Positions 36,655 to 59,562 of a stretch of DNA of 64,000 nucleotides are shown one piece after another; the stretch's first letter is position 1; the number at the start of each line of letters is the position of its first letter. The notes beneath the pieces are model-generated. The model searched no databases. It was not told where the DNA came from and worked only from the letters and a program-made list of their open reading frames with translations. The position numbers and the translations under genes were made by a program. The stretch is from Alphaproteobacteria bacterium UBA2903 (GTDB lineage: Bacteria > Pseudomonadota > Alphaproteobacteria > CAAGCB01 > CAG-977). The stretch covers positions 74,812-138,811 of the forward strand of contig DEDN01000035.1 in assembly GCA_002349565.1 (NCBI GenBank). The letters are read 5' to 3'.

Positions 36655-36964
36655 AACGAATCGCGGTTGACAGCGATTTCGCCGCAGATGCGGTCAGTAC
36701 CGTTTTGAGCGCGCAAAAATAAAAACTTCTTGCCAATTCAATCAATGGGATTGTATCCTTGATATCAAGCGCGGGGGCAACCGTCCGCGCGCCAAGTGCC
36801 TGAAAAAGAGGCGCGGAGCCGTCGAAAGCTCTCTATGAGGAGGCGAAAATCACGCCTTTAAACCGTGTTGCGTTCTGTAAAACGGATTCTTTCCCCGATT
36901 TCCTTTAATGGAGCGGGGAGTTCTTGAAAAGAAAATATTTCTTGTTTTTATTTGTTTTCTCCCG

Positions 36965-36986
36965 TGTTGGAAAGTATTTTCCAACA
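36965..36986. promoter_or_regulatory. Perfect 9-bp inverted repeat TGTTGGAAA-gtat-TTTCCAACA upstream of the integrase
   Basis: A palindrome is read in the AT-rich island boundary region about 130 bp upstream of the integrase start. It looks like an operator. Confidence 0.4.
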
Positions 36987-37113
36987 TATTGATTTTATTA
37001 GAATATCTTGTTTTCATTTCCTTTGAAGGCGTGTTCGGGAAAAGGCTGTTTCATTCAGTCGATTTCTTCACAAAGTTACCGTGGCGTTACCGCGGTATGA
37101 AAGGTAATGAGCT

Positions 37114-38292
37114 ATGAATTTGAACAAGACTTTTATCAATTCCCTGACGTTTGACGGCGTGGAAAAGACTTATTTTGACGACGTTTTAAAAGGTTTCGGA
37201 GTGCGGGTGGGCAAAACGTCCGCAAGCTATATCGTTATGTATCGAAACGTTTACGGCAAGCAAAAGAAAATCACGATTGCCAAGACGACGCAGATCGCTC
37301 CGGCGCAAGCCCGCGACGAAGCCAAGAAAATACTGGCTCTGGTCGTTCAGGGCAAAGATCCCGCTTCCGACAAAATCGAAAAGCGCAAAGAAATGACGGT
37401 CGCCGATCTTGCCGACAAGTTTCTGACCGACCGGAAGCCGCGCATCAAAGCTTCTTCTTTTGCCGTGTATTCGGCTTCCGTCAGAAGTTAGATTTTACCG
37501 GCTTTCGGGAACCGTTTTATCAAGGAGTTGCGCCGCGCCGACGTTCAGAAGTTTTACAACGATATGGTGGGCGGAGCTTATATGGACAGGCGGGGTTATC
37601 CGGCGGATCACAAGTTTGTCGCGGCGGCAAATCACGCGAGAAAGACACTTTGCTCGATGTATGAGTTCGCCATTCGCAACGATTGGGCGGATATGAATCC
37701 GGCAATCAGACTGGACACGCTTTCGACGGCGAAAAGAATGGTCTTCCTTGACGAAAAAGGGTTTGTGAAGTTCGGGAACATTCTTCAAATCAAGCACGAA
37801 CGGGAAGAAACGGTCAGGAGCATTTTTATTTTGTTGGCGTTGACGGGATGTCGCAGAAGCGAGATCACGACGTTGAAGTGGGAATATGTCGATTTTGACA
37901 ATCAGGCGTTTCGCTTTCCGGACACAAAGACGGGAGCGCAAAACCGCCCGTTCGGAAGCGCGGCGAAAAGGTATCTGTTGGCGTTGAAAGAGAAAAGCGG
38001 CGATCCGACGGAAGGATTTCTTTTCAAACCGGCCGTAACGGCGAAGATGCCGGCGTATTTTGCGACGCACGTCAAGCCGGAAATCGGGATAACGGGCTTT
38101 TGCCTGCACGCTTTAAGGCACAGCTTCGCGTCAATGGCGGCGGCGTTGGGATATTCGGACAACATCATCGCGGGATTGTTGGGGCATCACATCAACACGA
38201 TCACGAACCGATACACGCACCTGACGGAAAAGGTCGTCGTTGACGCCGCCAACGTCGTCAGCGAAAAAATCGCGGAATTGATCGGAGTATGA
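37114..38292 (+). pseudogene. int: P4-type tyrosine integrase interrupted by an in-frame TAG at 37489-37491
   Basis: An N-terminal arm-type DNA-binding domain (37114-37488) and a C-terminal catalytic domain (R...HALRHSFAS...Y) lie in the same frame. A single amber codon separates them, between ...SVRS and ILPAFG.... Confidence 0.75.
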
Positions 38293-38304
38293 AAAAAGAA
38301 AAAT

Positions 38305-38326
38305 GGGGCAGAATAAATTCTGCCCC
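38305..38326. terminator. Bidirectional hairpin terminator (ggggcagaataaattctgcccc)
   Basis: A perfect hairpin lies between convergent genes. Confidence 0.65.
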
Positions 38327-38350
38327 TCTAAATGAAATAGTAAGATTAAC

Positions 38351-39409
38351 TCATAATGAAATTATACATTCACCCGTTGTGTTATGTTTTTGAATATTTT
38401 TTTTGACGGTTTCCCTGCTTACATTAGCATAGCAATATACGCATAAATGATTGCAGGTATTATACATTCCAATATCTTTGCTGATTATACATCCGCAAGC
38501 GGAACGCTGTCCTTTATCTTTTAAATCTTTATATTCTTTCGGTCTCGAAAATCCCGAAGAAAACAGTGTCGGCTGGGTATCGGGAAGTTTTCCTGTATGC
38601 AGATAATAGATCAATTCTTTGTCTTCCGGGAAAAGCCGTTCCAACAACATACCGTCTATACAACGATTTTTTTCAATTCCGTATTTCATTAAATCAATGT
38701 TTTCAGCACAGGTAGCAAGAGATATTTTCCAACCTTTCTCTTCCCAGGCATCTCTTATTTTTACAAGTCCTTCAACGATTTCTTTGCGTTGAGCTTCCGT
38801 CAATTCGGCCGAACAAACATTTTCCCTTGTAAACATCCCTGTTTCATTGATCATGTTGTTTTGAACTTTACGATAAGCGGCAACATCGGCGAAGCTGAAA
38901 ACAAGTTTATCCGTATATCCTTTTAAGCGATTGCCGATATGCCAGATTTTTTTTAACAAATCGCGGGGCGTCAGTCGAGGCGTAACGATCAAAGGATCAA
39001 AACGCCAGATAACCCGTTCTTTCCCGATCATTTCGGATAATGTCTTAAACGTCTCGATTCTGTCTTCAACGGGTGGAACGTGAGGTTCAAAACCTTCTGA
39101 AACGTAATCATTCAGAGTAACCTGAAAATAGTAGTGGATTCCTCTTTTATCCAATTCCTGCAAATAGGGAATAACCGGCTTAGGATTCTTTGTCCAGAAA
39201 ACGACGGCTTTGCATTTTTTAAACGAAACGTAAGAGGGCTGACGATTGAAAGGATTATACCAAACACAATATCCCTTTTCCAAACGATTGAAAAACCAGG
39301 GCGCATAAAAAGCTGGTATATCTGTGGAACGGCTTGCCGATATGATTACCGGGCACACCGCTTCTTTTTTTTCGCCGGAATCCGTGATAATAAAATCTTT
39401 TTCAATCAT
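38351..39409 (-). CDS. DUF1848-like protein with C-terminal CxxxCxxC (radical-SAM-like) cysteine cluster
   Basis: The AT-rich ORF has the C-terminus SACGCIISKDIGMYNTCNHLCVYCYAN, which contains CNHLCVYC (CxxxCxxC). The start is taken at MIEKDFIITD (ATG 39409), not the track ORF start at 39535. This is the last gene of the five-gene operon. Confidence 0.55.
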   Translation of the reverse strand: MIEKDFIITDSGEKKEAVCPVIISASRSTDIPAFYAPWFFNRLEKGYCVWYNPFNRQPSYVSFKKCKAVVFWTKNPKPVIPYLQELDKRGIHYYFQVTLNDYVSEGFEPHVPPVEDRIETFKTLSEMIGKERVIWRFDPLIVTPRLTPRDLLKKIWHIGNRLKGYTDKLVFSFADVAAYRKVQNNMINETGMFTRENVCSAELTEAQRKEIVEGLVKIRDAWEEKGWKISLATCAENIDLMKYGIEKNRCIDGMLLERLFPEDKELIYYLHTGKLPDTQPTLFSSGFSRPKEYKDLKDKGQRSACGCIISKDIGMYNTCNHLCVYCYANVSRETVKKNIQKHNTTGECIISL

Positions 39410-39431
39410 GATATTTCGATGACAACTCCTC

Positions 39432-40514
39432 TTAAAGTTTTTCCATAAAAGTAAGCTGTTCATTATTATTAGATTTCTTTTCGGTTGATTTTCTTTTTTT
39501 TGTTGAATTCTTTTTTTTCTTCTCTGAATTTTCATTTTCTTTTGATATAGGAGCTGCTATATCTTTTCCAAACAACTGACCGTAGAATTCAGCATAAACG
39601 TCTTTAATGTAATCAAATTGTTCATTCAGAAGAATATCCGTAAAATCCCGTGTCAGATTTGCAAAGCCGGTCAAAAGACCGAACAACGAAAAAGCAATAC
39701 GATAATCTGACATTTTTTGACTTTGCATAAAGTGGAGCAATTTTTCCCAATCGTCTCCCTTTATCAAGACGGCCGCAACTGAAGACAAAAGACCGTTATC
39801 CCATTTCTGGTTGAATTCATCACCTCTGAGATGTCTGCGGAGGCTATTTAAAAACTCACGCGCGTGGGAATTTTCCCATTCTTCGTTGTAAACTTGTTTT
39901 GCCTCTTTTGTTATATCATCGGCCAGATCCGTTTTCTTTTCGTTGATTTTAAAAAACGGTTCGGATTTGCTTAAAATCAGCTGATAAACAGACTTATATA
40001 GTTGCTTTTCTTTTTCAGTTTCAAAAAGTTTTTCTTCTGTCTTTTCAAGTTTATCGTTTATAAAGACAATCTCGCTATCACGCGTATTTAAGAGTTTACG
40101 TTCTGATGAAATTTTATCATTAACGGATTTTATTTCGTTCTGAACCCACCGAAGTGCAGAACAATCATAAGAAACGCCCGATTGAATTTCAGAAAGCACA
40201 TCGTCCAAAAGAACAATGTTTTTTAGCTTATTATGCTTTCTAAGTCCTTTGATTATCTTTTCAATTTGATCATCGTTAAATTCGCCCGATAATTCGGAAT
40301 ACCACGGCTCCATTTGCCGTAAAGAAATGAAGGATGTTTTTAAGTCAGATAATTGAGTCCCCGTTATATTTCTATCGGGCGTTGATACTATGGAAGAAAA
40401 TATATTGTAAATATTTTCTAACAAAGATTTTTTTGGGACGTTTCCAACGATGTTGAAAGTATGGCTCCTATATAATAACCGTAAAGCATTCCTTTTATTT
40501 TGTTTATCCGACAA
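39432..40514 (-). CDS. Hypothetical protein (360 aa), operon member
   Basis: The AT-rich ORF has no recognised domain. Its N-terminus overlaps the upstream ORF by 97 nt in another frame. Confidence 0.5.
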   Translation of the reverse strand: MSDKQNKRNALRLLYRSHTFNIVGNVPKKSLLENIYNIFSSIVSTPDRNITGTQLSDLKTSFISLRQMEPWYSELSGEFNDDQIEKIIKGLRKHNKLKNIVLLDDVLSEIQSGVSYDCSALRWVQNEIKSVNDKISSERKLLNTRDSEIVFINDKLEKTEEKLFETEKEKQLYKSVYQLILSKSEPFFKINEKKTDLADDITKEAKQVYNEEWENSHAREFLNSLRRHLRGDEFNQKWDNGLLSSVAAVLIKGDDWEKLLHFMQSQKMSDYRIAFSLFGLLTGFANLTRDFTDILLNEQFDYIKDVYAEFYGQLFGKDIAAPISKENENSEKKKKNSTKKRKSTEKKSNNNEQLTFMEKL

Positions 40515-41059
40515 TCTTTTGAAACGTCCTCCTCCGAAAGGTTTTTATTCGGATCTTTTTGTAAAGGTTTGTATGTATTTTCCTTATATGTTTCGACCAC
40601 CAGATTCTCCTGATATAGTCGCAACATTTTTGTTTCCAAGCTGGAATCCGAAAGAGATAAGGTTGTTCGTTTGTCTTCTTCCGAGAAAAAAATAAACCGT
40701 GTATTTTCAGGGGTGAGATAGATAGTTTTTTTTGAAATATAGACTCCTTTTTTAACCTTTTGAAAATTTTCATCAGAACAAATTTCAATAAGGAGCGGAT
40801 GATCCTCAACCTCATCATTGTTACGCGTAAAAGAAAAAGGCCCCTCATACAAAACGATGGAATTCTCCAAGGCGTTTTCATTTGTTTTCTGCCATCTGGA
40901 ATATCCGTATCCTCTTTTCTGATAAAACATATAAGGGGAAACAGACTCGGTTGATAAGATATTGTTAAAATTGAGTGTTGATGTCGGAATGTAATAATTT
41001 TTCATCTTATAAATCCTCAATTTCTTCAACTTCGGTTGTTGTATATAGGGTTCTGTCAA
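40418..41059 (-). CDS. Hypothetical protein (about 195-213 aa), operon member
   Basis: The AT-rich ORF has no recognised domain. It overlaps the helicase by 53 nt and the downstream ORF by 97 nt. Confidence 0.45.
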   Translation of the reverse strand: MTEPYIQQPKLKKLRIYKMKNYYIPTSTLNFNNILSTESVSPYMFYQKRGYGYSRWQKTNENALENSIVLYEGPFSFTRNNDEVEDHPLLIEICSDENFQKVKKGVYISKKTIYLTPENTRFIFFSEEDKRTTLSLSDSSLETKMLRLYQENLVVETYKENTYKPLQKDPNKNLSEEDVSKDCRINKIKGMLYGYYIGAILSTSLETSQKNLC

Positions 41060-42068
41060 GTTCCGAAAACAGTTGCGGAAGATTCCCGCTATACATCATA
41101 TATAAATCCCGATAAGTTCTTGTCATCGCAACATACAGAGCCTTCCGTTGAGACATATCCGCACTTTCCAAAAAAGGAATAAAGACCGTTTCAAACTGAA
41201 GACCTTTTGCACTATGGTATGTAAGAAGCTTCGGGTTTGTTGAATTGAAGTTAAGATTATCTGCGCTATTTCTATCAACTTTATAACGCGCCTCATAGTT
41301 TCCGCCCTTTTCTTTCAGTTTTTCGTAAACCAATTTAACATCCGTATTTCGAGGAAGTAAGATGGCAACATCATTTAAATTTCTGTTTTTTATAATCCTA
41401 TGTATCGCATCAATTTGCTCGTCTTTATTTTCGTATTGAATAATACGGGGAAGTTCTTTTTCCGAGCTTTTATAAACGGCATCATCATAAGATGTATCAA
41501 TTCCTATTTGGCACGCTATTTTCGCAACCGGACTTGGCAATCTGTAATTATTATATAAAGGGAAAGGCTTAGGCCTGATTTTTTCCGAAATAAAAGACGG
41601 GATATTTTCTACCGGAACCATTTTTCTGTTTTCCATTCCGTCATAAATTGATTGAGCCGTATCTCCGAAAAAGAAAAAATTTTTCTTTGACGAATTTATA
41701 AATCTTTTAATTTCATCTTCAGTAAAATCCTGAATTTCATCAACAATGATATAATCTGCCGAAGCGCAGTTTTCTTTGTTTTCCCATTCCCAATAATATG
41801 AAAACTCATTTTTTAAGCCAAGAGCTTCGCGACCGGCATTCATATAGCTGCATAATGCCTTTGTAAAAACAATCACTTTGTAATTATTTCCACGTTCTTT
41901 CTGAATTCGTTGAGCTTTAATCAGGGCAAGAACGGATTTTCCGCTTCCGGCACACCCTTGGACAATGCATGATTTATCCAAAGTCGCCGTTAAAACTCTA
42001 ATCTGAGCATCATCAAGTTCAGATTCTTTAATCATCCAGTCTTTTTTCATCGTTTGAAAATCCTCCAA
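41007..42068 (-). CDS. Compact SF1 UvrD-like helicase (AAA_19 + UvrD_C_2 type)
   Basis: A Walker A motif (GCAGSGKS), a Walker B/DExx motif (IIVDEIQD) and a C-terminal motif (TYHSAKGLQFETVFIP) are present. The protein is only 353 aa. Confidence 0.7.
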   Translation of the reverse strand: MEDFQTMKKDWMIKESELDDAQIRVLTATLDKSCIVQGCAGSGKSVLALIKAQRIQKERGNNYKVIVFTKALCSYMNAGREALGLKNEFSYYWEWENKENCASADYIIVDEIQDFTEDEIKRFINSSKKNFFFFGDTAQSIYDGMENRKMVPVENIPSFISEKIRPKPFPLYNNYRLPSPVAKIACQIGIDTSYDDAVYKSSEKELPRIIQYENKDEQIDAIHRIIKNRNLNDVAILLPRNTDVKLVYEKLKEKGGNYEARYKVDRNSADNLNFNSTNPKLLTYHSAKGLQFETVFIPFLESADMSQRKALYVAMTRTYRDLYMMYSGNLPQLFSELDRTLYTTTEVEEIEDL

Positions 42069-42916
42069 GCCACTTTGCTACAATCTTTTTCCTTTTGTGA
42101 ATGTGATACGCAAATAGTTTCACGTCTGTCGCTGTTTCTCCCCATAAGTTCTAAAGACACATGATCGTTAATGTCATCCATCATGGCGTAAATCCATTTA
42201 TCAGAAACGGTATTATGCGATGTAATATCTTCAACGCATATTATTCCTTTGTCGTCAATTTTTGAGGAGAAGCTATTTATAAAGAAAACATATGGATTAT
42301 CACTTCCGAATTGTTTTTTTGTAACGAATTCATTTAACGACTTAAAAGAAACAAAAATGTCAAAAAATTGTTTTATTTCTGACGACATTATATTCATATC
42401 GTATAAATCACTTATTTCGTAAAAGAACGGTTTTAATTCTATGTTTAACAAGCACGTTATTTTAAATTGTGTTATTGTTTTTTCTAAAATCCTGAGAGCA
42501 TTTGCATTCCCATCTAAAGCTAGAATTTTTATTTTGTTCACGGAGGGGAGATTATCCATAACAGCCTGCAATAATCCGAAAACTTCCCCACCAGTTCCGC
42601 ATCCGAAGTCAAAAACAGATAATTTGTTTCTGCCCTCGTATATATGTTTGTTTGATTGAAAAAAGAGATTGAATATACGATAGGCTTCCGCATAACTCCG
42701 TGGAAAATATGTTCCCAGATATTTCAATAACTGGGATTCGTCATAATCCAATGCAACAAGGGGCTTGTATTCCGGGCAATAGGAAGCTTGCAGAGTTTTG
42801 AAAATATATTCATCCAGCCATTCCGGGAGTTTAACAATATTTACCATTTTTTTTTGCTTCCCTGATTGCCATGCTCCAACTATCGATTTTTGATTAGGAT
42901 TGATAATGCTTCCCAA
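42047..42916 (-). CDS. Class I SAM-dependent methyltransferase
   Basis: Motif I is VFDFGCGTGGEV. No clear DPPY/NPPY or C5-MTase motifs are seen, so the substrate is uncertain. This is the first gene of the operon and it overlaps the helicase by 22 nt. Confidence 0.6.
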   Translation of the reverse strand: MGSIINPNQKSIVGAWQSGKQKKMVNIVKLPEWLDEYIFKTLQASYCPEYKPLVALDYDESQLLKYLGTYFPRSYAEAYRIFNLFFQSNKHIYEGRNKLSVFDFGCGTGGEVFGLLQAVMDNLPSVNKIKILALDGNANALRILEKTITQFKITCLLNIELKPFFYEISDLYDMNIMSSEIKQFFDIFVSFKSLNEFVTKKQFGSDNPYVFFINSFSSKIDDKGIICVEDITSHNTVSDKWIYAMMDDINDHVSLELMGRNSDRRETICVSHSQKEKDCSKVAWRIFKR

Positions 42917-43034
42917 TCTAACCTTCGTTAGGTCAGGAAAAATCCAATCCGCAGAAATCGGCGGAATATTTAAAAGGTTGATATTGCCGGAAACGTTTAG
43001 TAAACTTCAGCCTAACGAACGTCAGATTGGGAAA
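42908..43034. repeat. Imperfect 26-bp inverted repeat pair (cttcccaatctaaccttcgttagg / rc ctttcccaatctgacgttcgttagg) flanking a ~66 bp spacer
   Basis: The repeat is read on both strands. One arm overlaps the MTase start codon and the other overlaps the stop codon of the serine recombinase. About 22 of 26 positions match. Confidence 0.6.
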
Positions 43035-43614
43035 GAAACCTGTAAACTGTGCTTTTGCCGACGCCGTGTTTTCTCGCCGTTTGAACGACCGAAAGCCCGT
43101 TTGACAAATCCCTTAGAATCCAGTCTTCTTTCCCGTCAAGAATGTGCTTTTTGTTGCGGCTTCCAGTCGATCGTCCGAGATGTTTTCCCTCGGCTTTCAA
43201 GCGACTCAACGCTTCTTTCATCCTTTGGGAAATCAGCGTCCGTTCGACTTGAGCGACCATAGAAAAAACAAACGCCAATAACTGCGATTGAATATCCTCT
43301 CCCAAGCGGTAGTTTTCTTTGACCGTCCAGACTTGCACCTGTTTCGTCATACAGACGTTCAAAATCGTCATCACGTCCAGAATGTTTCGCCCCAGCCGCG
43401 ACAGTTCCGAACAAACCACGATGTCGCCTTTTTTCAGCTTTTTAAGCGTCCGCCCGATTTTTCTTTTCGCGAAAACGACCGTTCCGCTGATCGTTTCGTT
43501 GATCCATACGTCAACGGGAAAATCCTTGCGCTCAAGGAAACGCTCTATTTCAAATCGCTGATTTTCCGTTGTCTGTTTGTCCGTGCTGACTCTGATATAT
43601 CCGTAAACCGTCAT
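43012..43614 (-). CDS. Serine recombinase (resolvase/invertase family)
   Basis: The N-terminus YGYIRVSTDKQ contains the catalytic Ser. A C-terminal HTH is present and the protein is 200 aa. Confidence 0.85.
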   Translation of the reverse strand: MTVYGYIRVSTDKQTTENQRFEIERFLERKDFPVDVWINETISGTVVFAKRKIGRTLKKLKKGDIVVCSELSRLGRNILDVMTILNVCMTKQVQVWTVKENYRLGEDIQSQLLAFVFSMVAQVERTLISQRMKEALSRLKAEGKHLGRSTGSRNKKHILDGKEDWILRDLSNGLSVVQTARKHGVGKSTVYRFLSQSDVR

Positions 43615-44354
43615 CGTTCGATACCTCTTTCTTTTGAATGTTCTGCGGGCTTGGGACGGTCGGCGGCGGCGCGGGATCGTTTCAGCTGTTCAAGCGTTTT
43701 GTGTTTGCGGGGAATGACGACTTGCGTCAAGGAAAAGTCCCTGTCCCGGAACCGCGTCGCCTGCAATTCAACGCCGAACCGTCTGGCGATTTCGGACTGG
43801 CGCAAGCGCATTTGCTCGATTTCCCGCCGGTTGAACTCCAACCGTTTCAAGCCGTTGTTCAGTTTCAAAATAAAGTGGATGTGTTTGTGCCGTTGATGAC
43901 GGTGCGCGGCGAACACATACGAATATCCGTTTTCGGCGAACGGTCGCATATATTCGGTCGCGAACGCTTCCAAATCCTCCGACGCCATACCGCACCCGTT
44001 CGGGAAAGACACGATAAAATGAATGGCGCACCGCCCGTTCTTGCGTCCGCTTTCCGGTTCTTCGGTCAGCCGTTCTTTGAACTCCTGCGCCGTCAGATGT
44101 GTTTCAGTTTCGTCCGTCAACGTCAGCTTTTCTTCCAAGCCTTTCGACTTTTCCGCGACGTATTCCGCCATAGCGCAAACCGTGCCGATGCTTTTGGCGT
44201 AACCGACTATCTTGAACACCGCTTCAAACGGACGGGAACGGGACAGGCTGATAAAGTGCTTTTGTAAAGGCTCGTAATGAAAGGGCAGTCCCGGACGCTC
44301 CCGCCGGATGCCGCGGATATGCTCGTCAAGCCAATCGTGTTTGCGTTTAACCAT
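43611..44354 (-). CDS. Mobilisation relaxase (MobA/VirD2-like relaxase domain)
   Basis: A histidine triad (AAHRHQRHKHIHFIL) is typical of the relaxase HxDxxHxHxH motif. The gene overlaps mobC and the resolvase. Confidence 0.6.
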   Translation of the reverse strand: MVKRKHDWLDEHIRGIRRERPGLPFHYEPLQKHFISLSRSRPFEAVFKIVGYAKSIGTVCAMAEYVAEKSKGLEEKLTLTDETETHLTAQEFKERLTEEPESGRKNGRCAIHFIVSFPNGCGMASEDLEAFATEYMRPFAENGYSYVFAAHRHQRHKHIHFILKLNNGLKRLEFNRREIEQMRLRQSEIARRFGVELQATRFRDRDFSLTQVVIPRKHKTLEQLKRSRAAADRPKPAEHSKERGIER

Positions 44355-44658
44355 AGTAATACCTCAACAGCCGGACAATCTTTTCCCGCAAAAGCGCAAG
44401 ACGTTCCAAGTGTTCTTTGATGTTTTCCGCTTCCGCTCCGCCGTTCAACGCGCGGGCGATCTGGTTCAGATTGACGCCGATCCGGCGCAGTTCCTCGCGG
44501 ATTTCCGTCAGCTTTTCGATTTCTTTCGTCCCCGGAGCGTTCGCTTTCGCCAATCCCGCCGCGATGAATCTGCGGGCGACGCCCGACGGGTTGTCAAACC
44601 TGTCGAGCATCGCTTTGTGTTCGGGTGGCAATCGTAAAGCGATCTTCACTTTCGCCAT
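44347..44658 (-). CDS. mobC: Mobilisation protein MobC (relaxosome accessory, RHH)
   Basis: The sequence MAKVKIALRLPPEHKAMLDRF...IGVNLNQIARALN is characteristic of MobC. The start is taken at ATG 44658 and the protein is 103 aa. Confidence 0.75.
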   Translation of the reverse strand: MAKVKIALRLPPEHKAMLDRFDNPSGVARRFIAAGLAKANAPGTKEIEKLTEIREELRRIGVNLNQIARALNGGAEAENIKEHLERLALLREKIVRLLRYYYG

Positions 44659-44663
44659 ACCGC

Positions 44664-44882
44664 TCACCCCCGTTCCGAAGTCGAATGAACGGGCGCGGAA
44701 AGCAGCTCCGCCACCCAAGCGTCCAAGTCCGCGACATCGTAAACGACTTGCGTTTTGCCGAACTTGCGGAACTTCGGACCGCCGCCGATCGTCGCGTATT
44801 TCGCCAACGTCGCCGACGTCCGGTTCAATCCCTTTTCCATCAGGTAAGAGGAAGCTTCCTTGCGTGTTAAATACGTTTTCAT
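44664..44882 (-). CDS. AlpA/Xis-family helix-turn-helix DNA-binding protein
   Basis: The 72-aa protein MKTYLTRKEASSYL...VVYDVADLDAWV has paralogs at 48709-48933 and 55968-56210. Confidence 0.6.
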   Translation of the reverse strand: MKTYLTRKEASSYLMEKGLNRTSATLAKYATIGGGPKFRKFGKTQVVYDVADLDAWVAELLSAPVHSTSERG

Positions 44883-45322
44883 AGTTTGGTGTCCTTTCGT
44901 AAAAATGACCGCCTTTTGACGGAACACTTCCAGAAAAGACCGATGCCGACCGCTTGGCAATTTTGCAAACGTGCAATTTCCGCCGTAAAAGCGCGAAAAC
45001 GGATTATATCTTATTGAAAATAAACGGGTTTAATTTGCAGGTTATCGGATTGAAAGGGACGGACTTTACCGGGTCGGGATAAAACCGGCAGGGCAAAGAG
45101 GCGTAAGGCGGGATTCCACGTGCGATTTTGTCCGACAAATCGCGTATACTGCAAAGGAAAGCCCCTCTGAAATATCAAAGACTTCCCCGCCGCCTAAATG
45201 TTTGAAAAACAGATATCCGACTTTTTTTGCAGGATAGCCTTTTTGTGGCACAAAAACGGCAAAAAAATTTCTTGTTTGAGAATGGCGGCGTTATCTTTTA
45301 TAAATAGGAAAAGGGGTGCTTT

Positions 45323-46259
45323 ATGGTTGAAAACGAACGCACGGAATACAAAGAAAAACTGACTGCCGCTTTGGAAAAGGAAGCGGTGGCGTTTCTGAAC
45401 GCGCACGGCGGAACGATCTATATCGGCATTGACAAGAACGGGAATCCCGTCGGCGTTGACAAGTGCGACGCGCTTCAACTGGAAATCAAAGACCGCCTGA
45501 TAACGGGGATTCGTCCGTCCGTTATGGGCTTGTTTGACATTGCCGGCGAACGTCTGAACGGATCGGGACGTTTTGACGGAAAATAAGAACTTCGGATATT
45601 GCTCTTTAATCAAGGCGACCGAACAGGTCTTGGACAAGTTTTTCGTTGAAAACAGGATTTACGCTCGCGTAACGGCAACCAAGCGCGAAGAACGCCCGAT
45701 GGTCGATCCGCAAGCATTAAGAGAAGCGGTCATTAACGCGATACTGCATAACGATTATTCATACAACAATCCGCCGAAGTTCGAAATGTTTTCGGACAGA
45801 ATAGAGATCACGTCAACGGGCGGCTTGCCGTGGGGAATGACGAAAGAAGACTTTTTCAACGGCAAGTCGTGTCCGCGCAATCCCGAATTGATGAGAATTT
45901 TTCAGGATATGGAACTGGTCGAGCGTCTTGGGTCGGGCGTGCGGCGGATTTTGAACGCTTACGCGCCGGACGTGTTCGAGATTTCGGACACTTTCTTCCG
46001 CGTAACGTTCCGCTATAACAAGCCGTTTGCCGAAGCGGACGATAAAGCCGGAGAGAAAAACAGGGAAAAAACTACCCAAAAAACTACCCAAAAAATCTTG
46101 GACGCAATCAGGAAGAATCCGCAGATCAGCCGTCAGGAACTGGCGGAAATCGTCGGTATTTCCGAAAGCGGCATTAAATGGCAGCTGAAAAAGATGAAAG
46201 ACGAAGGCATCATTGAGCGCGTCGGTTCTCTCAAAGGCGGCAAGTGGGTGGTAAAGTAA
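45323..46259 (+). pseudogene. AlbA_2 + HATPase_c_4 + HTH regulator, split by frameshift/deletion
   Basis: An N-terminal AlbA_2 (divergent AAA) fragment (45323-45586; FLNAHGGTIYIGIDKNG) is followed in another frame by the HATPase_c_4 and winged-HTH part (45573-46259). The full-length family is usually a single protein of about 400-480 aa. Confidence 0.6.
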
Positions 46260-46725
46260 GATTTCTATTCTTCCAGCTGAGTCAGTGCAATCCGTTTCAT
46301 TTCGTTTTTTTACAGTTTTCTTTTTTTCAACCAGATAAAGTGAATATCCGATAGCTTTCCAGTGTTTTCGACAATGGTTTCGATGCTGAACGAACGGCGA
46401 AAGGAGGAATAAAAGGCATTATTTTCGTTGCAACCTTAGATAAATCGGATAGGATAATTAATGGGATTCCTGAGCGATAAAAGGCCAACGGAATGAATTT
46501 GAGACTTTTTTTCTTTCACGGATTGATAAAAGAATTTCATCTGTCAAAAATACGGCGGATATTGGAAAGAACGGACATTGGTGATGAAGCGAAAATGCTG
46601 TTGGTCACAAACTCTTTGAATCGGTTGAAAGAAATTGATGAAGCCTACAATTTTGCTGATACTTTGGATAAATTGAATACGTTAATTAATGGACAAAATA
46701 AGCAATAATTTTTAGGGATTCCAAA

Positions 46726-47286
46726 ATGTTTTCTTATCCGATTATAATAGAACAACCAAAAGATTGGATTGATTATTTATCCGCTTTTGGCCCTATGATT
46801 GCCGCCTTTATTGCAATCGGTATAGCTGTTTGGCAGGGAATAATTCAAAATCGTCAGCATAATTTGGCTTTGTTCGAAAAAAGGTGGGCTTTTTGGGAAG
46901 AAACAAAAAAGCTTGGCTATAAAACACAAACATTTAAACATACTCCTGCTGACGAAATGGGCGATGGTTCAGATCCTGAAAAGAATTTTTGGATTGTTGG
47001 TCAGGAAATACAAAATCTGGCTAAAAAAGGCTGTGTTCTGTTTGGAAAAAAAATTGAAACGGAAATCAATGAAATTGCAGAAACTTTTAAAAAAAATCAT
47101 TTGCTTCAAGAAAGAATATTAGAAAAACTGAAATATAAAGATGACTATGAACGTGCAGGGAAATCTATAAGAGAAGAGCTTTCTATGGATTTTGATAATA
47201 AAAGGAAACTTGACTTACAGCACTCGCAAAAATGGAACGAATTAGCCCAGCATATTTTTGATAAGATACGGGAATTGGAAGTATGA
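46726..47286 (+). CDS. Hypothetical protein with one N-terminal TM segment (AT-rich)
   Basis: The 186-aa ORF has a hydrophobic stretch, PMIAAFIAIGIAVW, followed by a charged helical region. Confidence 0.4.
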   Translation: MFSYPIIIEQPKDWIDYLSAFGPMIAAFIAIGIAVWQGIIQNRQHNLALFEKRWAFWEETKKLGYKTQTFKHTPADEMGDGSDPEKNFWIVGQEIQNLAKKGCVLFGKKIETEINEIAETFKKNHLLQERILEKLKYKDDYERAGKSIREELSMDFDNKRKLDLQHSQKWNELAQHIFDKIRELEV

Positions 47287-47475
47287 TTCATTTCTGGTAT
47301 TGTTTTTTGAGAAACTGGAAGATTTTTTTGATGCTCTCTCTGCTCTGGTTGTTGCGGGATGGGCTGTTTTGCATACTTGGGGGAAAGAAAGGGAAGCCTT
47401 TCCATTATTTAGGAGTGCTACGGAGTTTTTTATAAGGGGTTTCAACGGGAAAAAGAGAAAAGGAGGCTGTTAAAA

Positions 47476-48564
47476 ATGTCGATAAAAGATCGTATGGTTG
47501 AACGGATGATGAAAAACTATCCTATCTTAAATAGAAAATATAGAGAGCTTCATTACGTCAACTTTTTGAAATATTTGGAAGATTTTTCAAAAAAAGAATT
47601 TAGTGAAAGTGGAAGAGAATATTATGCGAAATCTTTTCTATTTGATTGCTATATAGAGGCGGAAAAACGGTCTATACGTATAGAATCAGAAAACCGTAAA
47701 GAAGAAAAACGTAGAGAAGAAGAAATACGTAAAAAAGAAGCTGACGAGTTTGAAAAATATGTAATTTCTGAAATGGTAAAACATTATGCTGTTTTGAGAA
47801 CAAAGTTCAGTAGAGCGAAAGTGGTTGATGAATATGGAATTGAAACTTTTAATGAAGAACAGTTTGATGAAGATTTAAAGTATTTTGTTAGAAACGTTTT
47901 GAAAGAAAATAAAAATATGCCACAAGCGTTTTTCTTTCATTGCTTTGAACAAGCAAAAGAAGTTGCAGAAAAGGAATTTGATGAGTTCGAAAAATATGTA
48001 ATTTCTGAAATGGTAAAACATTATGCTGTTTTGAAAACGAAGTTTAATAGAGCAAATGTTGTTGATGAATATGGAATTGAAACTTTCAACGAAGAACAGT
48101 TTGATGAAGATTTAAAGTATTTTGTTAGAAAAGTTTTGAGAGAAAATAAGAATATGCCGCAAGAGTTTTTCTTCCGTTGCTTTGAAAAAGCAAAAGAAGT
48201 TGCGGAAATTGATTTTAATGTATCGAATATTCAAACAGGCGAAGATTATGAACGGTTTGTTCGTGAACTTTGCGTATCAGCCGGTTTTGAATGTGGAATG
48301 ACACCGAAAACGGGTGATCAGGGTGTTGATTTAATTGTCAGAAAAGACCGGACTCATATCGCGATACAGTGTAAATTCTATTCAAGTCTTATCGGAAATG
48401 CCGCAGTTCAGGAAGTCATCGCGGGACAGAAATTTTATAATTGCGATTATGCGTGCGTCGTTTCCAATCAAGATTATACCGATTCCGCGAGAAAACTGGC
48501 AAATGCGGCTGATGTTAAATTGTTATCACACGAAACATTGATTCCGTATCTGCAAAAACTGTGA
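47476..48564 (+). CDS. Mrr-like restriction endonuclease (C-terminal Mrr_cat domain) with duplicated N-terminal module
   Basis: The C-terminus, GDQGVDLIV...IAIQCKFYS...VGNAAVQEV, matches the Mrr catalytic D...QxK pattern. The N-terminal half contains two copies of an 80-aa unit. Confidence 0.6.
   Translation: MSIKDRMVERMMKNYPILNRKYRELHYVNFLKYLEDFSKKEFSESGREYYAKSFLFDCYIEAEKRSIRIESENRKEEKRREEEIRKKEADEFEKYVISEMVKHYAVLRTKFSRAKVVDEYGIETFNEEQFDEDLKYFVRNVLKENKNMPQAFFFHCFEQAKEVAEKEFDEFEKYVISEMVKHYAVLKTKFNRANVVDEYGIETFNEEQFDEDLKYFVRKVLRENKNMPQEFFFRCFEKAKEVAEIDFNVSNIQTGEDYERFVRELCVSAGFECGMTPKTGDQGVDLIVRKDRTHIAIQCKFYSSLIGNAAVQEVIAGQKFYNCDYACVVSNQDYTDSARKLANAADVKLLSHETLIPYLQKL
47746..48219 (+). repeat. 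Direct tandem duplication, 2 x 237 bp (~90% identical), inside the Mrr-like gene
   Basis: The unit EFEKYVISEMVKHYAVL(R/K)TKF...KEVAE is seen twice in both the DNA and the protein. Confidence 0.8.
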
Positions 48565-48708
48565 TTCTGCAAAAATATTTATGAATGGGGACTTAACTCA
48601 AATACTCTCCTGATTGGCGGATAAACCGTCATTCTGCCTATGCCTGTTATACTCCCCTGCCATATCGTCGTTTGATTGAAAAATAAAAAATTACTAAAAC
48701 AGGGCGGA

Positions 48709-48933
48709 TTACTCCGCCCTGTCTGTTGATACGTTTTTGTTGATCCATTCGTCCAAATCGGCTTTGCGGTATCGGACGACTTTTCCCAATTTGACAAACG
48801 GCAAGCCGTATTTGTTCGTCATACGCCAGACGGCAAGCGTGTTGATTTTCACGCCGATATAAACGGCGGCGTCCCTCGGTGTCATCAATCCGGCGGGGGA
48901 TATGTTGCAGGCTTCTTTACAGGTTCGTTCCAT
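48709..48933 (-). CDS. AlpA/Xis-family HTH DNA-binding protein
   Basis: The sequence MERTCKEACNISPAGLMTPRDAAVYIGVKINTLAVWR...VVRYRKADLDEWI carries an HTH_17-type signature. Confidence 0.55.
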   Translation of the reverse strand: MERTCKEACNISPAGLMTPRDAAVYIGVKINTLAVWRMTNKYGLPFVKLGKVVRYRKADLDEWINKNVSTDRAE

Positions 48934-49284
48934 GTGTTCCTCCTTTCTTTGACGAAGGCTTGAACACACAGAAACACCGGCGCACACGTCCTTCATCAAA
49001 TAAATGATGTCGGTTTCGATTGAATTGTGTGCAGGCTCGGTAAATACCGGTCTGTGCTAAAAAGCTGTTATCAATCTAAGCATATCAACGCCTTGTTTGC
49101 AATATCCCCCGTGTATGATTGTGATTGATTATCATTACCGGACGGAAAAAAAAGAAAATACGGATTGCGTTTTTTACGCTTTTGACTGATGATGAATGAG
49201 GAAGATTGATGACATTTGAACGGTGTCGGGGTTGACCGTCGGTCGACCGGAGTTTTCCCGAAGGCTTTGTAAATTGTCTGCCGG

Positions 49285-49313
49285 AAAACAAAAAATCCCT
49301 TGAAAATCAAGGG
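49285..49313 (-). terminator. Hairpin terminator downstream of tRNA-Gln
   Basis: The hairpin cccttgaaaatcaaggg is followed by a T-run on the minus strand. Confidence 0.5.
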
Positions 49314-49321
49314 CTTGTGAT

Positions 49322-49396
49322 TGGCTGGGGAACCTGGACTCGAACCAAGACTAACTGAGTCAAAGTCCGTTGCCTTACCGCTTGGCTACGTCCCAA
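49322..49396 (-). tRNA. tRNA-Gln (anticodon TTG)-like, with imperfect acceptor and anticodon stems; island boundary
   Basis: The reverse complement reads TTGGGACGTAGCCAAGCGGTAAGGCAACGGACTTTGACTCAGTTAGTCTTGGTTCGAGTCCAGGTTCCCCAGCCA. The D-arm, the anticodon loop CTTTGAC, the T-arm and the CCA end are canonical. The 5' acceptor strand mismatches the 3' strand at two or more positions, and the anticodon stem has one mismatch. Confidence 0.55.
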
Positions 49397-49505
49397 CGAC
49401 AATAAGATAAGTAATCTGTTTTTAAGGGCTTAGTCAAGTAATTTATGCACGCTTTAAATTTTAATTGTTTTTTTTATCAAATCGGGTATTGTGTGCTTTA
49501 CAGAC

Positions 49506-49582
49506 GCGCCCGTAGCTCAGCTGGATAGAGTATCGGCCTCCGAAGCCGAGGGTCGTGGTTTCGAATCCCGCCGGGCGCACCA
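49506..49582 (+). tRNA. tRNA-Arg (anticodon CCG)
   Basis: The sequence GCGCCCGTAGCTCAGCTGGATAGAG...CCTCCGAAGCC...TTCGAATCC...CGGGCGCACCA has a 7-bp acceptor, an anticodon loop CTCCGAA, and is 77 nt long, like E. coli argX. Confidence 0.85.
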
Positions 49583-49637
49583 TTCTTTAAAAAAAAACGG
49601 CCGTCGCGGTCGTTTTTTGCATTTACGGGGCGGAAAA

Positions 49638-52004: not shown

Positions 52005-52005
52005 T

Positions 52006-55155: not shown

Positions 55156-55967
55156 CGTTTCCCCCTTATTCTTTCTCAAGAAAGGATAAGAAGGCCGTTG
55201 AAGGAAATCAACTTGTTGATTTTTATCGGTTTTTTGATTTTGATTGATTTTAATTGATGCCGGTCGAAAACGATTAAAAACGGGATAAAGTTTTTCTCAA
55301 ATTGCTTTTTGCGCTAGAAAGACGTATCATCTTTAACGAAGCGGGAACTGGAAAAGGTTTTCGTTTTTCAGAGGTTGCTTTCAAAGGATAAAACACGCTT
55401 CGGGATTGTTACTGGGACGTTACCTTGAAAACGGTTTCTAAAAAGTCAAAAAAACAAATAAGACAGGATTTTTTATTTAAGTTCAAACGGTTATCAAAAC
55501 ACATTCCCCGAAAAAAATTGATTTTTCAAAATCGGGGAGGTTTTGACGTATGTTCAGATTCCACCCCTTCCGGTCGGAATTAAAGGTCTTAACGATCATT
55601 CCACATAGTGATTTTCGAACTCCCCGCTATGACTTTAAAGTATTGCCGCTTTTTTGTCGGAAAGTTTTAACCGTTTGAATTTAAAACGGATTTCAGCGTT
55701 TTTTCTGCTTCGATTTTAGCAAGCCCTATTTTCAAGGTAACAGCACGGTAACAAAAATTCCATATTTGCCCGCCTTGGAAAGCAACCTCAATTTGTCGCC
55801 GTTGATTGCTCTATGACGCCATCAATCAAGGTACGTCTTTTTTCCGATTCCGTCAAGCCGCATGCAAAAGACTCAAAAAGCTCCCAAAAGCACCATTTTG
55901 AACGGTTCCTCTTTGATTTGTTTCATGCCACCGTAAAGGCGTTTGAAATCAATCAAAGGAGTTCGTT

Positions 55968-58471: not shown

Positions 58472-58472
58472 T

Positions 58473-59561: not shown

Positions 59562-59562
59562 A

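What the first reader, a model, noticed from the sequence alone, without database searches (positions are those of the whole stretch)
36700..49400. Mosaic ~12.6 kb integrative mobilisable element bounded by an amber-interrupted integrase and a tRNA-Gln-like gene
GC content drops sharply after the phosphoesterase gene. The interval holds a P4-type integrase, a defence-like operon, a serine recombinase, a relaxase with MobC and Xis (a complete mobilisation module without conjugation genes, i.e. an IME), a regulator pseudogene, an Mrr-like nuclease, and then the 3' end of a tRNA-Gln-like gene facing the island.

Blocks of about 33% GC and 55% GC alternate, so the element looks like a composite of at least three modules. 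The integrase lies at the end far from the tRNA. No direct repeat of the tRNA 3' end was found at the left boundary. Only a 9-mer, ggctgggga, recurs, and it lies inside the phosphoesterase CDS.
Basis: partly seen in the sequence, partly recalled or inferred. Interest (0 to 1): 0.6.

Follow-up and report, generated by a model that had tools for sequence, protein, structure and literature searches.

The report
Disabled mobilisable island carrying swappable defence genes
This is a 12.4-kb mobilisable island in an uncultured gut alphaproteobacterium, stranded by one stop codon in its integrase; it carries swappable anti-phage-like genes behind a likely flip-switch, and its integrase end sits at an undescribed small-RNA locus rather than at a copy of the tRNA.

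Summary
Window ~36,913-49,321 is an integrative mobilisable element (IME). It has a P4-type integrase killed by one CAG->TAG change, a MobC/relaxase module and no conjugation genes. The GC mosaic matches two low-GC cargo slots that other strains fill with different genes on the same backbone.

The tRNA-Gln interpretation is only partly right. In this integrase family the intact target normally lies far from int, with a displaced target fragment about 200 nt upstream of int. Here that position holds an 11-nt core, GCGGGGAGTTC. It matches the 3' end of an unannotated ~100-nt structured RNA gene (intact copy at 55,529-55,629), not tRNA-Gln. The hairpin-rich flank next to it covaries. No right-hand repeat was found.

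Two further features emerged:
- A serine recombinase scoring just above NCBIfam's Mpi-invertase cut-off sits beside a 23-nt inverted repeat around a 78-nt segment, directly upstream of the cargo operon. This looks like an ON/OFF switch, but only one orientation was seen.
- The cargo (methyltransferase-like, SF1 helicase, unknown protein, DUF1848) recurs in other metagenome contigs (one from a Prevotella MAG), in one case beside a type IV restriction gene. It matches no complete PADLOC system.

Verdict: a new variant of a known kind; moderate interest.

The parts
36810..36923 (+). R1: four-hairpin region (P1-P4) just outside the IME's integrase end. In intact loci elsewhere it directly precedes the R2 RNA gene.
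   Evidence: Covariance model R1 scores 93.9 bits here. Ten copies: 90% of cells paired against 41-50% in slid controls, 15 pairs changed on both sides, 0/500 shuffles reach this. No Rfam match.
36913..36923 (+). attL core, GCGGGGAGTTC (TCGGGGAGTTC in other strains), 201 nt upstream of int; left end of the IME.
   Evidence: Same position (-201/-202) and sequence in 19 loci with unrelated left flanks. Identity to other strains is 96-99% to its right and collapses to its left. It is the reverse complement of the R2 RNA 3' end.
37114..38292 (+). P4-type tyrosine integrase pseudogene; TAG at 37489-37491.
   Evidence: Pfam Arm-DNA-bind_3 and Phage_integrase. One CAG->TAG change against intact 392-aa copies in L011 and L014. 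The same split into a 125-aa ORF is called in three other assemblies.
38351..39409 (-). Cargo slot 1: DUF1848 protein with a C-terminal CX3CX2C cysteine cluster.
   Evidence: Pfam DUF1848, 1.4e-92. PADLOC RTasDUF1848, 4.9e-39. 67-69% identical to the cassette copies in L107-L109.
39432..41005 (-). Cargo slot 1: two ORFs of unknown function (293 aa at 39432-40313; 195 aa at 40418-41005). Homologues have them as one gene or fused to the helicase.
   Evidence: No Pfam or PADLOC family. tblastn shows a frame change at ~40424-40448 relative to P0124, and no match to the C-terminal ~130-210 aa of homologues.
41007..42050 (-). Cargo slot 1: small SF1 (UvrD-like) helicase.
   Evidence: Pfam Viral_helicase1 and UvrD_C_2. 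PADLOC GajB and RTasHel models. 60-63% identical to L107 and L108.
42047..42847 (-). Cargo slot 1: SAM-methyltransferase-like protein, first gene of the operon.
   Evidence: Weak Pfam CheR and Methyltransf_31 hits below their cut-offs. 38-45% identical to the first gene of the L107 and L108 cassettes.
42910..43033 (.). Candidate invertible switch: 23-nt inverted repeats (42910-42932 and 43011-43033) around a 78-nt segment.
   Evidence: Repeat pair with 2 mismatches, unique in the window, 0 expected by chance. The segment holds TTGATA-N17-TAAACT on the + strand and a terminator-like hairpin on the - strand. Two contigs end exactly at the inner edge of one arm, and L014 shares the switch with different cargo beyond 42910.
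43012..43614 (-). Small serine recombinase of the Mpi invertase family, overlapping the relaxase stop.
   Evidence: Pfam Resolvase, 1.4e-32. NCBIfam NF009949 'master DNA invertase Mpi family', 278.4 bits against a cut-off of 272.
43611..44882 (-). Mobilisation module: 72-aa HTH protein (44664-44882), MobC (44347-44658) and a 247-aa relaxase (43611-44354).
   Evidence: Pfam Relaxase, 5.4e-13, and MobC, 2.4e-9. NCBIfam MobP1, 1.3e-10, below its cut-off. Gene starts taken from the L001 calls. No plasmid relative at E<=1e-5.
44883..45322 (.). Divergent intergenic region; probable oriT. Contains the inverted repeat GCGATTTgtccgacAAATCGC at 45122-45143.
   Evidence: Read from the sequence. Position upstream of mobC is inferred; no nic site was identified.
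45323..46259 (+). Backbone regulator split into two ORFs: SLFN_AlbA_2 (87 aa) and HATPase_c_4 + HTH_24 (228 aa).
   Evidence: Pfam. The same split is called in all IME copies.
46265..48702 (+). Cargo slot 2: 71-aa and 186-aa ORFs and a 362-aa Mrr_cat nuclease with an internal 237-nt tandem duplication (47715-48188).
   Evidence: Pfam Mrr_cat, 7.8e-23. PADLOC ZorD Mrr-like and PDC-S02 models. Duplication. L011 carries other genes here, and L012 and L014 have a 263-aa Mrr.
48709..49321 (-). Right terminal region: HTH_17 (AlpA/Xis-like) gene at 48709-48933, then 320 nt of non-coding DNA ending in the tRNA-Gln terminator hairpin (49296-49316). A core-like GTCGGGG lies at about 49225-49231.
   Evidence: Pfam HTH_17, 9.2e-10. 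Sequence. The L010 prophage contig becomes homologous to the window only from 49321. No R2 remnant by covariance model or nhmmer.
49322..49395 (-). tRNA-Gln(UUG) abutting the island. Mismatches A5.C68 and C6.U67 in the acceptor stem and G29.A41 in the anticodon stem.
   Evidence: ARAGORN. Rfam tRNA, 44.1 bits, with non-canonical pairs flagged. The mismatches are in all nine other contigs compared, except that L012 has G5.
55529..55629 (+). R2: intact copy of the small structured RNA gene whose 3' end (GAACTCCCCGC, 55617-55627) is the reverse complement of the IME's attL core. It marks a second island hot spot.
   Evidence: Covariance model R2, 102 bits. Ten copies: 94.7% of cells paired against 37-58% slid, 12 pairs changed on both sides. 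Followed by rho-independent terminators in L011-L014 and L038. No Rfam match.

Best explanation
Window ~36,913 to at most 49,321 is one member of a family of integrative mobilisable elements in an uncultured human-gut alphaproteobacterium.

Backbone. It comprises a P4-type integrase, a 72-aa HTH protein, MobC, a small relaxase, a split AlbA_2/HTH regulator and an AlpA-like HTH_17 gene. With a helper conjugative system this backbone could excise, transfer as single-stranded DNA from an oriT upstream of mobC, and re-integrate. In this copy a single CAG->TAG change truncates the integrase. The element is therefore stranded and now behaves as a fixed chromosomal defence island.

Cargo. Two low-GC slots hold exchangeable cargo. 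Here they hold a methyltransferase-like / SF1 helicase / unknown / DUF1848 cassette and an Mrr-type nuclease.

Switch. Slot 1 lies directly downstream of an Mpi-family serine invertase and a 124-bp unit of two inverted repeats around a 78-nt segment. I infer that this is an ON/OFF switch. In the orientation seen, a terminator-like hairpin faces the read-through from the mob operon and the only promoter-like site points away from the cargo, so the state would be OFF.

Integration. I infer that it follows the family rule: the displaced 3' end of the target lies ~200 nt upstream of int and the intact target lies at the far end. In this subfamily the target is the 3' end (or the palindromic closing stem) of an unannotated structured RNA locus (R1/R2), not a tRNA.

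Shown: gene content, the nonsense mutation, slot boundaries, alternative occupants of the site, the attL core and its identity with the R2 3' end, covariation in R1 and R2, the inverted repeats, and recurrence of the cassette elsewhere.

Inferred: transfer, oriT, inversion, defence function, and that R1/R2 are transcribed.
For: IME content and absence of conjugation genes.

Nonsense mutation against intact copies. The same split integrase occurs in three other assemblies.

Backbone and slots: L011-L015 and L020 share 37078-38294, 43591-46264 and 48703-55627 at 94-99% identity but carry different genes in between. These include PIF1/TOTE proteins, unknown proteins, and a HARE-HTH protein.

Site turnover: a prophage (L010) and a DUF1156/DUF499/SNF2 island (L016) lie against the same right flank.

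Family architecture: integrases 33-38% identical have a 24-53-nt repeat of the tRNA-Val 3' half at -186 to -221 from int, and the intact tRNA-Val at the far end.

Core: TCGG(G/A)GAGTTC sits at -201/-202 in 19 loci. In close relatives it is preceded by the reverse complement of CCGCC-loop-GGCGG-T(n) terminators. The same terminators follow the R2 gene in L011-L014 and L038. Integrases 58-61% identical carry type I R-M cargo directly after int.

RNA evidence: with invariant G-U pairs fixing the strand.

Switch.

Cassette recurrence: L107-L109, and a NERD-containing variant next to a GmrSD gene in L114.
Against: - No right-hand att repeat was found. A covariance model and nhmmer find no R2 copy or remnant between 48,900 and 49,420. 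Only a 7-nt GTCGGGG at about 49225 and a weak resemblance to the tRNA-Gln 3' end exist.
- No empty site was recovered among 10 contexts.
- Only one orientation of the switch was seen in four contigs. The promoter-like match is no better than shuffled sequence gives.
- The cargo cassette matches no complete PADLOC system. This copy has a frame change and lacks a domain present in homologues, so it may be inactive.
- The relaxase is short and has no plasmid relative at E<=1e-5. oriT is not identified.
- Left flanks differ between strains that share the right flank. This needs rearrangement or assembly error to explain.
- The RNA evidence rests on only 10 copies, in alignments fitted to the models.
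Confidence: 0.6

Rival explanations
1. A classical tRNA-Gln island. The element integrated into the 3' end of tRNA-Gln, and the distal repeat has decayed beyond recognition.
For: The element ends against the tRNA-Gln 3' end, and another element (the L010 prophage) abuts exactly the same base. Relatives of the integrase do target tRNA 3' halves. The attL region (TGGGTCGGGGAG in other strains) loosely resembles TGGCTGGGGAA. The tRNA has acceptor-stem mismatches, as a hybrid gene might.
Against: No repeat at up to 3 mismatches in 25 nt. The 11-nt core is identical to the R2 3' end, is shared with relatives whose flanks are R2-type terminators, and is conserved although the integrase is intact and 96-99% identical in other strains. 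The tRNA mismatches are also present where a different element abuts the tRNA (L010).
Confidence: 0.2
2. Two unrelated elements in tandem: an int / cargo / mob element (36.9-45 kb) plus an older tRNA-Gln-linked remnant (AlbA_2 regulator, Mrr, HTH_17).
For: There are two Xis-like HTH genes (44664-44882 and 48709-48933). GC is mosaic. Slot 2 varies independently of slot 1. L014 shows tandem accretion on the left side, with a MobC gene of another element.
Against: All six variants keep the same backbone order. Only two copies of the core occur in the window, and neither is internal to the element. No internal att-like repeat was found.
Confidence: 0.12
3. A chromosomal defence island that is no longer mobile in any strain. 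Variation arises only by homologous recombination across conserved backbone genes. The hairpins at the left end are DNA-level features, such as recombination scars or protein-binding sites, and not an RNA.
For: No attR and no empty site were found. Slot boundaries coincide with the ends of conserved genes. Single-sequence folding is not exceptional, with z-scores of -1.4 and -1.7.
Against: Intact integrases exist, and the same integrase lies next to different flanks with a sharp identity break at the core. Compensatory changes with invariant G-U pairs favour a single-stranded function on one strand. Terminators follow R2.
Confidence: 0.15

Closest known systems
Integrative mobilisable elements such as NBU1 of Bacteroides and SGI1 of Salmonella (from my own knowledge of the literature)
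   Same: A tyrosine integrase, small DNA-binding helper proteins, MobC or a relaxase with its own oriT, no mating-pore genes, a size of 10-40 kb, insertion at the 3' end of a conserved gene, and accessory cargo.
   Different: The relaxase has no detectable plasmid relative. The integrase is of the P4 type. The cargo is defence-like rather than resistance genes. The integrase is inactivated in this copy. The target appears to be an unannotated RNA locus.
tRNA-Val-targeting relatives of the same integrase family, found here (L052, L053, L055, L059, L060)
   Same: The same layout: the displaced target 3' fragment ~200 nt upstream of int, and the intact target on the opposite strand at the far end.
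   Different: Those have a 24-53-nt tRNA repeat. The window's subfamily has only an 11-nt core matching a non-tRNA RNA gene, and no far-end copy is detectable.
P4 satellite and P4-like islands with anti-phage hot spots; SXT ICE hotspot 5 (from my own knowledge)
   Same: A conserved mobile backbone with a fixed slot that carries different defence systems in different strains.
   Different: This is a mobilisable element rather than a phage satellite or an ICE. It has two slots, one of them behind an invertase switch.
Bacteroides invertible promoters controlled by the Mpi serine invertase (PMC4747536) and phase-variable R-M in B. fragilis (PMC7641763)
   Same: A small serine invertase that reaches the Mpi-family cut-off, with short inverted repeats around a short segment directly upstream of an operon. 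The repeat contains ACGTTCGT, which I recall as resembling the Mpi site consensus. That is a lead from memory and was not verified.
   Different: The host is an alphaproteobacterium. The switch is carried on an IME and gates defence-like cargo. Inversion was not observed.
DUF1848 and helicase partners of UG25/UG35 defence reverse transcriptases (PMC9226505)
   Same: DUF1848, a UvrD-like helicase and a methyltransferase domain co-occur in defence contexts.
   Different: There is no reverse transcriptase here. The proteins form a separate cassette with an extra unknown protein.
Small-RNA genes used as attachment sites: ssrA for CP4-57, cyaR/ryeE for P2-like phages (from my own knowledge)
   Same: Integration at the 3' end of a structured RNA gene followed by its terminator.
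   Different: R1/R2 match none of the 4227 Rfam families.

Membership tests
Integrative mobilisable element (IME) | Encodes its own site-specific recombinase for integration and excision | tested here: inconclusive
   A P4-type integrase is present but truncated at codon 126 by TAG. Intact 392-aa copies exist in other strains.
Integrative mobilisable element (IME) | Encodes a relaxase (with or without an accessory protein) and carries an oriT | tested here: inconclusive
   Relaxase and MobC pass the Pfam thresholds. oriT is only inferred from position.
Integrative mobilisable element (IME) | Lacks type IV secretion and coupling-protein genes | tested here: met
   No such domains in any ORF between 36.9 and 49.3 kb.
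Integrative mobilisable element (IME) | Bounded by att repeats, with the site empty or differently occupied in related genomes | tested here: inconclusive
   The attL core is defined. No attR was found. The site is differently occupied in L010 and L016, but no empty site was seen.
Integrative mobilisable element (IME) | Excision and mobilisation by a helper element | not testable with these tools
   Needs sequencing reads or experiments.
tRNA-integrating P4-type genomic island | Direct repeat of the tRNA 3' end at the boundary far from the tRNA | tested here: not met
   No match at up to 3 mismatches in 25 nt. Positive controls in relatives show 24-53-nt repeats.
tRNA-integrating P4-type genomic island | Integrase with the P4-type arm-binding N-terminal domain | tested here: met
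   Arm-DNA-bind_3, 1.3e-13, and Phage_integrase, 9.2e-16.
Invertible promoter (inverton) with an Mpi-family invertase | Serine invertase of the family encoded next to the switch | tested here: met
   NF009949, 278.4 bits against a cut-off of 272. One repeat arm overlaps the gene's stop codon.
Invertible promoter (inverton) with an Mpi-family invertase | Inverted repeats flanking a short segment that contains a promoter | tested here: inconclusive
   The 23-nt repeats are unique and significant. The promoter match (9 of 12) is at the level of shuffled sequence.
Invertible promoter (inverton) with an Mpi-family invertase | Both orientations present in populations | tested here: not met
   Four contigs all show the same orientation. 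Two contigs break exactly at the repeat edge, which is only suggestive.
Known anti-phage systems (PADLOC: DRT, Gabija) | All core components of one system present (reverse transcriptase for DRT; GajA for Gabija) | tested here: not met
   Only accessory-type models hit: RTasDUF1848 and GajB/RTasHel. There is no RT and no GajA.
Any curated Rfam RNA family (for R1/R2) | Score at or near a family's gathering threshold | tested here: not met
   No hit with E<0.1 over R1 or R2 in the window, L010 or L038. ARAGORN finds no tRNA or tmRNA there.

The most novel reading that the evidence does not exclude
R1-R2 is a previously undescribed structured RNA locus of roughly 200 nt or more in gut Alphaproteobacteria: four hairpins, then a three-way-junction RNA closed by a tRNA-like 7-8-bp stem, then a terminator. 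A subfamily of P4-type integrases has adopted it as its attachment site in place of tRNA genes. Because the closing stem is an inverted copy of the recombination core, integrase action there drives both island turnover and chromosomal rearrangement. The elements that land there deliver defence cassettes, including a new helicase/DUF1848 system whose expression is gated by an on-board invertase switch.
Probability: 0.3. Interest if true: 0.7.

Novelty: new variant of a known kind. Interest (0 to 1): 0.5.

Why it matters
IMEs with defence cargo are a known theme, so the core of the finding is ordinary. Three things would add value if confirmed.

1. It would show how an integrase family that normally uses tRNA genes has shifted to another structured RNA. 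This reveals a candidate new RNA class, and it explains why tRNA-based island finders miss the boundary.
2. A mobile element would carry its own invertase switch in front of interchangeable defence operons. Phase-variable immunity would then itself be transferable.
3. There would be a recurrent helicase/DUF1848 cassette, seen on several metagenome contigs (one from a Prevotella MAG), that current defence catalogues do not recognise.

All of this lies in an uncultured gut lineage known only from metagenomes, and all of it can be tested with existing read data.

Tried and rejected
- Direct-repeat searches between the two ends: k-mers of 8-12 nt and a 25-nt tRNA probe with 3 mismatches. Only low-complexity 11-mers came up.
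- Empty-site search through the left flank. GTDB relatives lose synteny exactly at the phosphoesterase stop codon and continue into different core genes, so they give no empty site.
- Empty-site search through the right flank. Ten contexts were recovered and none was empty.
- Reading the core as a tRNA-Pro 3' end. The only tRNA-Pro seen (L012) ends CGCTCCGACCA, which does not match.
- A degenerate R2 copy at 49,010-49,262, which I saw by eye. Neither the covariance model (best 3.2 bits, E=1.1) nor nhmmer supports it.
- Explaining the layout by inversion of the 18.7-kb segment between the two inverted cores. This does not restore a canonical target at the far end, so I set it aside.
- Literature check of the Mpi repeat consensus. 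It was not found, and the original paper is not held.
- Relaxase against PLSDB plasmids: no match.
- R2 pattern against IMG/VR viral contigs: no match.

Full report
**Organism and setting.** The 13 kb to the left of the feature is 98% identical to MAGs labelled 'Alphaproteobacteria bacterium' from human gut. Identical proteins occur on many human-gut metagenome contigs. The window therefore comes from an uncultured gut alphaproteobacterium with about 52-56% GC.

**Checking the observation.** ORF listing and Pfam, NCBIfam and PADLOC scans confirm the gene list.
- Metallophosphoesterase, 35506-36654.
- A P4-type integrase in two pieces, 37114-37491 and 37528-38292.
- A minus-strand operon: DUF1848 (38351-39409), two unknown ORFs (39432-40313 and 40418-41005), an SF1 helicase (41007-42050) and a methyltransferase-like protein (42047-42847).
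- A 200-aa serine recombinase (43012-43614), a 247-aa relaxase (43611-44354), MobC (44347-44658) and a 72-aa HTH protein (44664-44882).
- A split AlbA_2/HATPase_c_4/HTH regulator (45323-46259), two small ORFs, an Mrr_cat nuclease (47476-48564) and an HTH_17 gene (48709-48933).
- tRNA-Gln(UUG) on the minus strand (49322-49395) and tRNA-Arg(CCG) (49506-49582).

The GC profile shows the alternation described. The sharp fall, however, comes after int at 38.3 kb, not right after the phosphoesterase gene. No repeat of the tRNA-Gln 3' end exists.

**The integrase mutation.** Intact 392-aa integrases occur in other strains (L011 and L014; protein P0001). The window copy differs from them at six codons, and one of these is CAG->TAG at codon 126. 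The same split integrase, with a 125-aa first ORF, is called in three further assemblies. A lineage with a stranded element is therefore circulating. The adjacent tRNA-Gln has anticodon UUG, so it is not an amber suppressor.

**A family with a conserved backbone and two cargo slots.** I looked up the exact Ddl-like protein to the right of the tRNAs. This returned ten contexts, which I aligned to the window.
- Six contexts carry the same backbone at 94-99% identity: int, relaxase/MobC/HTH, the split regulator and HTH_17.
- They differ in two intervals, 38295-43590 (or -42909) and 46265-48702.
- These two intervals are precisely the low-GC blocks.
- Slot 1 holds PIF1/TOTE-domain proteins in L012, unknown proteins in L011, L013 and L015, and a 324-aa protein plus a HARE-HTH protein in L014.
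- Integrases 58-61% identical carry type I R-M systems, RhuM and ImmA-like genes directly after int.
- At the same right flank, L010 has a prophage whose large serine recombinase gene overlaps the tRNA-Gln 3' end. L016 has a DUF1156/DUF499/SNF2 island.

The mosaic and the mobility are real. No empty site was recovered.

**Where the element ends on the left.** Other strains are 96-99% identical to the window from about 36,880-36,914 rightwards and unrelated or strongly diverged to the left. The left neighbours differ: phosphoesterase here, an Fe-hydrogenase/PTS region in L020, a LysM peptidase region in L021, and a MobC gene of another element in L014. GTDB relatives with 98% identical left flanks lose synteny at the phosphoesterase stop codon and continue into different core genes.

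**The family rule for att sites.** A metagenome scan with an integrase profile gave 79 loci. In relatives with 33-38% identical integrases, a 24-53-nt direct repeat of the tRNA-Val 3' half starts 186-221 nt upstream of int. The intact tRNA-Val lies on the opposite strand at the far end. Int lying far from the tRNA is therefore the norm in this family.

In closer relatives and in all window-type copies, exactly that position (-201/-202) holds TCGG(G/A)GAGTTC. The window has GCGGGGAGTTC at 36913-36923. In the closer relatives the core is preceded by the reverse complement of a rho-independent terminator (A-run, then CCGCC-loop-GGCGG).

**The core belongs to another RNA gene.** The only other copy of the core in the window is on the opposite strand at 55617-55627. 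All strains diverge from one another at that point. Aligning the strains there shows a conserved ~100-nt unit:
- It runs 5'-TCGGGGAG...CTCCCCG(A/C)-3'.
- It has a variable, covarying internal hairpin.
- In L011-L014 it is followed by CCGCC-loop-GGCGG-T(n) terminators.
- Beyond that come either core genes (L011 and L017, an empty second hot spot) or different islands.

The left junctions of the close relatives are thus the reverse complement of 'R2 3' end plus its terminator'. This is what the family rule predicts for integration into the 3' end of this gene.

RNAalifold gives a closing stem, an inner stem carrying a variable hairpin, and a 3' hairpin. A covariance model (R2) finds further copies in L038, L016 and L052. 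On ten copies, 94.7% of cells pair against 37-58% in slid controls. Twelve pairs change on both sides, and no shuffle out of 500 reaches this.

**The hairpin region next to the IME.** The 110 nt left of the window's core fold into four hairpins (P1-P4). They are only 60-70% identical between strains, yet they keep their pairing. Model R1 also hits L038, L016, L052 and L010. On ten copies, 90% of cells pair against 41-50% slid, and 15 pairs change on both sides, again 0/500. Invariant G-U pairs fix the strand.

In L038, L016 and L052, R1 directly precedes R2 on the same strand and shares TCGGGGAG with it. In L010, L018 and L019, the reverse complement of R1 follows the R2 3' end. R1 and R2 are therefore parts of one locus. 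The palindromic closing stem of R2 presents the core in both orientations. Rfam has no family for either part. These alignments are small and were fitted to the models, so the RNA claim is provisional.

**The right end is unresolved.** By the family rule an R2 copy should sit at the far end. Neither the covariance model nor nhmmer finds one between 48,900 and 49,420. There are two candidates for the crossover: a 7-nt GTCGGGG at about 49225-49231, and the tRNA-Gln 3' end, where the L010 prophage also abuts. The tRNA-Gln has mismatches in its acceptor and anticodon stems in nearly all strains. I could not decide whether it is a hybrid or natively imperfect. In L052, a distant genome, a tRNA-Gln is followed by a duplicated tRNA 3' end and then by an R1-R2 unit. 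The tRNA and this locus may therefore be old neighbours.

**A likely switch in front of the cargo.** The serine recombinase reaches the NCBIfam cut-off for the Mpi master-invertase family, 278.4 bits against 272. Its last codons overlap one arm of a 23-nt inverted repeat (42910-42932 and 43011-43033). The pair has 2 mismatches, is unique in the window, and none is expected by chance. The 78 nt between the arms lie directly upstream of the cargo operon. They contain TTGATA-N17-TAAACT pointing away from the cargo, and a terminator-like hairpin on the cargo strand.

L014 shares the invertase and switch up to the outer edge of the repeat and has different cargo beyond it. Two short contigs end exactly at the inner edge of an arm, as an assembly would if both orientations were present. 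All four contigs that cross the segment show the same orientation, so inversion is inferred and not shown.

**The cargo.**
- PADLOC recognises only accessory-type models: RTasDUF1848 and GajB/RTasHel. There is no reverse transcriptase or GajA.
- DUF1848 is reported as a partner of UG25 defence reverse transcriptases.
- Homologues of the unknown protein lie in the same cassette (methyltransferase-like, helicase, unknown, DUF1848) on other metagenome contigs. One is from a Prevotella MAG. The cassettes have 34-38% GC.
- A variant with a NERD protein in place of the methyltransferase-like gene sits next to a GmrSD gene and transposase fragments.
- DUF1848 relatives about 70% identical are numerous: 7958 clusters at E<=1e-10.
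- The window copy has a frame change between the two unknown ORFs and lacks a C-terminal domain of homologues, so it may be impaired.
- Structure prediction gave no functional lead. The C-terminal CX3CX2C motif of DUF1848, read from the sequence, suggests an iron-sulfur, possibly radical-SAM, enzyme. That is inference.

**Verdict.** The finding is real and is an IME, but a stranded one. The tRNA-Gln boundary model is not supported at the integrase end. The element is best filed as a new variant of a known kind. Three leads deserve follow-up: the RNA locus used as attachment site, the invertase switch, and the DUF1848 cassette.

Noticed in passing
window 55628-64000: A second island starts exactly at the R2 3' end. 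It has an 80-aa HTH protein (55968-56210) related to the IME's 72-aa HTH, hsdM (56416-57894), a 194-aa ORF, hsdS (58359-59561), a 600-aa ORF and others, and it runs off the window. Other strains have different content here, or none (L011 and L017).
   Followed up: partly
window 49322-49395: tRNA-Gln(UUG) has two adjacent acceptor-stem mismatches and one anticodon-stem mismatch. Its Rfam score is 44 bits, against 62 for the neighbouring tRNA-Arg. L012 has G5, which restores one pair. Whether the tRNA is functional is unknown.
   Followed up: partly
window 47715-48188: A 237-nt tandem duplication (87% identical) inside the Mrr gene gives two 79-aa N-terminal repeats. L012 and L014 carry a 263-aa version, about one repeat unit shorter.
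   Followed up: partly
window 36648-36760; L004, L005, L006, L008: Relatives with 88-98% identical left flanks lose synteny at the phosphoesterase stop codon and continue into different core genes: tRNA-Thr/murA/his/atp in L008, and HAD/CorC/xth/argS in L004 and L006. This is either a rearrangement hot spot or MAG mis-joins.
   Followed up: partly
L010 8099-9759: A prophage occupies the tRNA-Gln site. Its 539-aa large serine recombinase ORF runs 33 nt into the tRNA-Gln 3' end.
   Followed up: no
L052 5599-6172: In a distant metagenome contig, tRNA-Gln is followed ~130 nt later by a second copy of its last 18 nt, a scar of an earlier insertion. An R1-R2 unit follows on the same strand.
   Followed up: no
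L016 7173-9941: One strain lacks tRNA-Gln and most of tRNA-Arg. A small resolvase gene and an R1-R2 unit lie upstream of a DUF1156/DUF499/SNF2 operon.
   Followed up: no
L015 1-360 and 14729-14850: This IME variant shows no integrase within the contig (its left end is a contig edge). Its left end is the reverse complement of the start of the window's second island. At hot spot 2 the R2 gene is cut right after its 5' TCGGGGAG and joined to an MmeI-like gene. Both look like recombination at the core.
   Followed up: no
window 49638-54000: The block between the two hot spots encodes two Ddl-like ATP-grasp proteins, an acetyltransferase and a lysine-2,3-aminomutase-like radical SAM protein. Its function was not examined.
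   Followed up: no
window 45323-46259: The AlbA_2/HATPase_c_4/HTH regulator is split at the same place in every copy seen. L015 has a further 219-nt deletion (45724-45942). L107 has an intact 562-aa version next to the DUF1848 cassette.
   Followed up: partly
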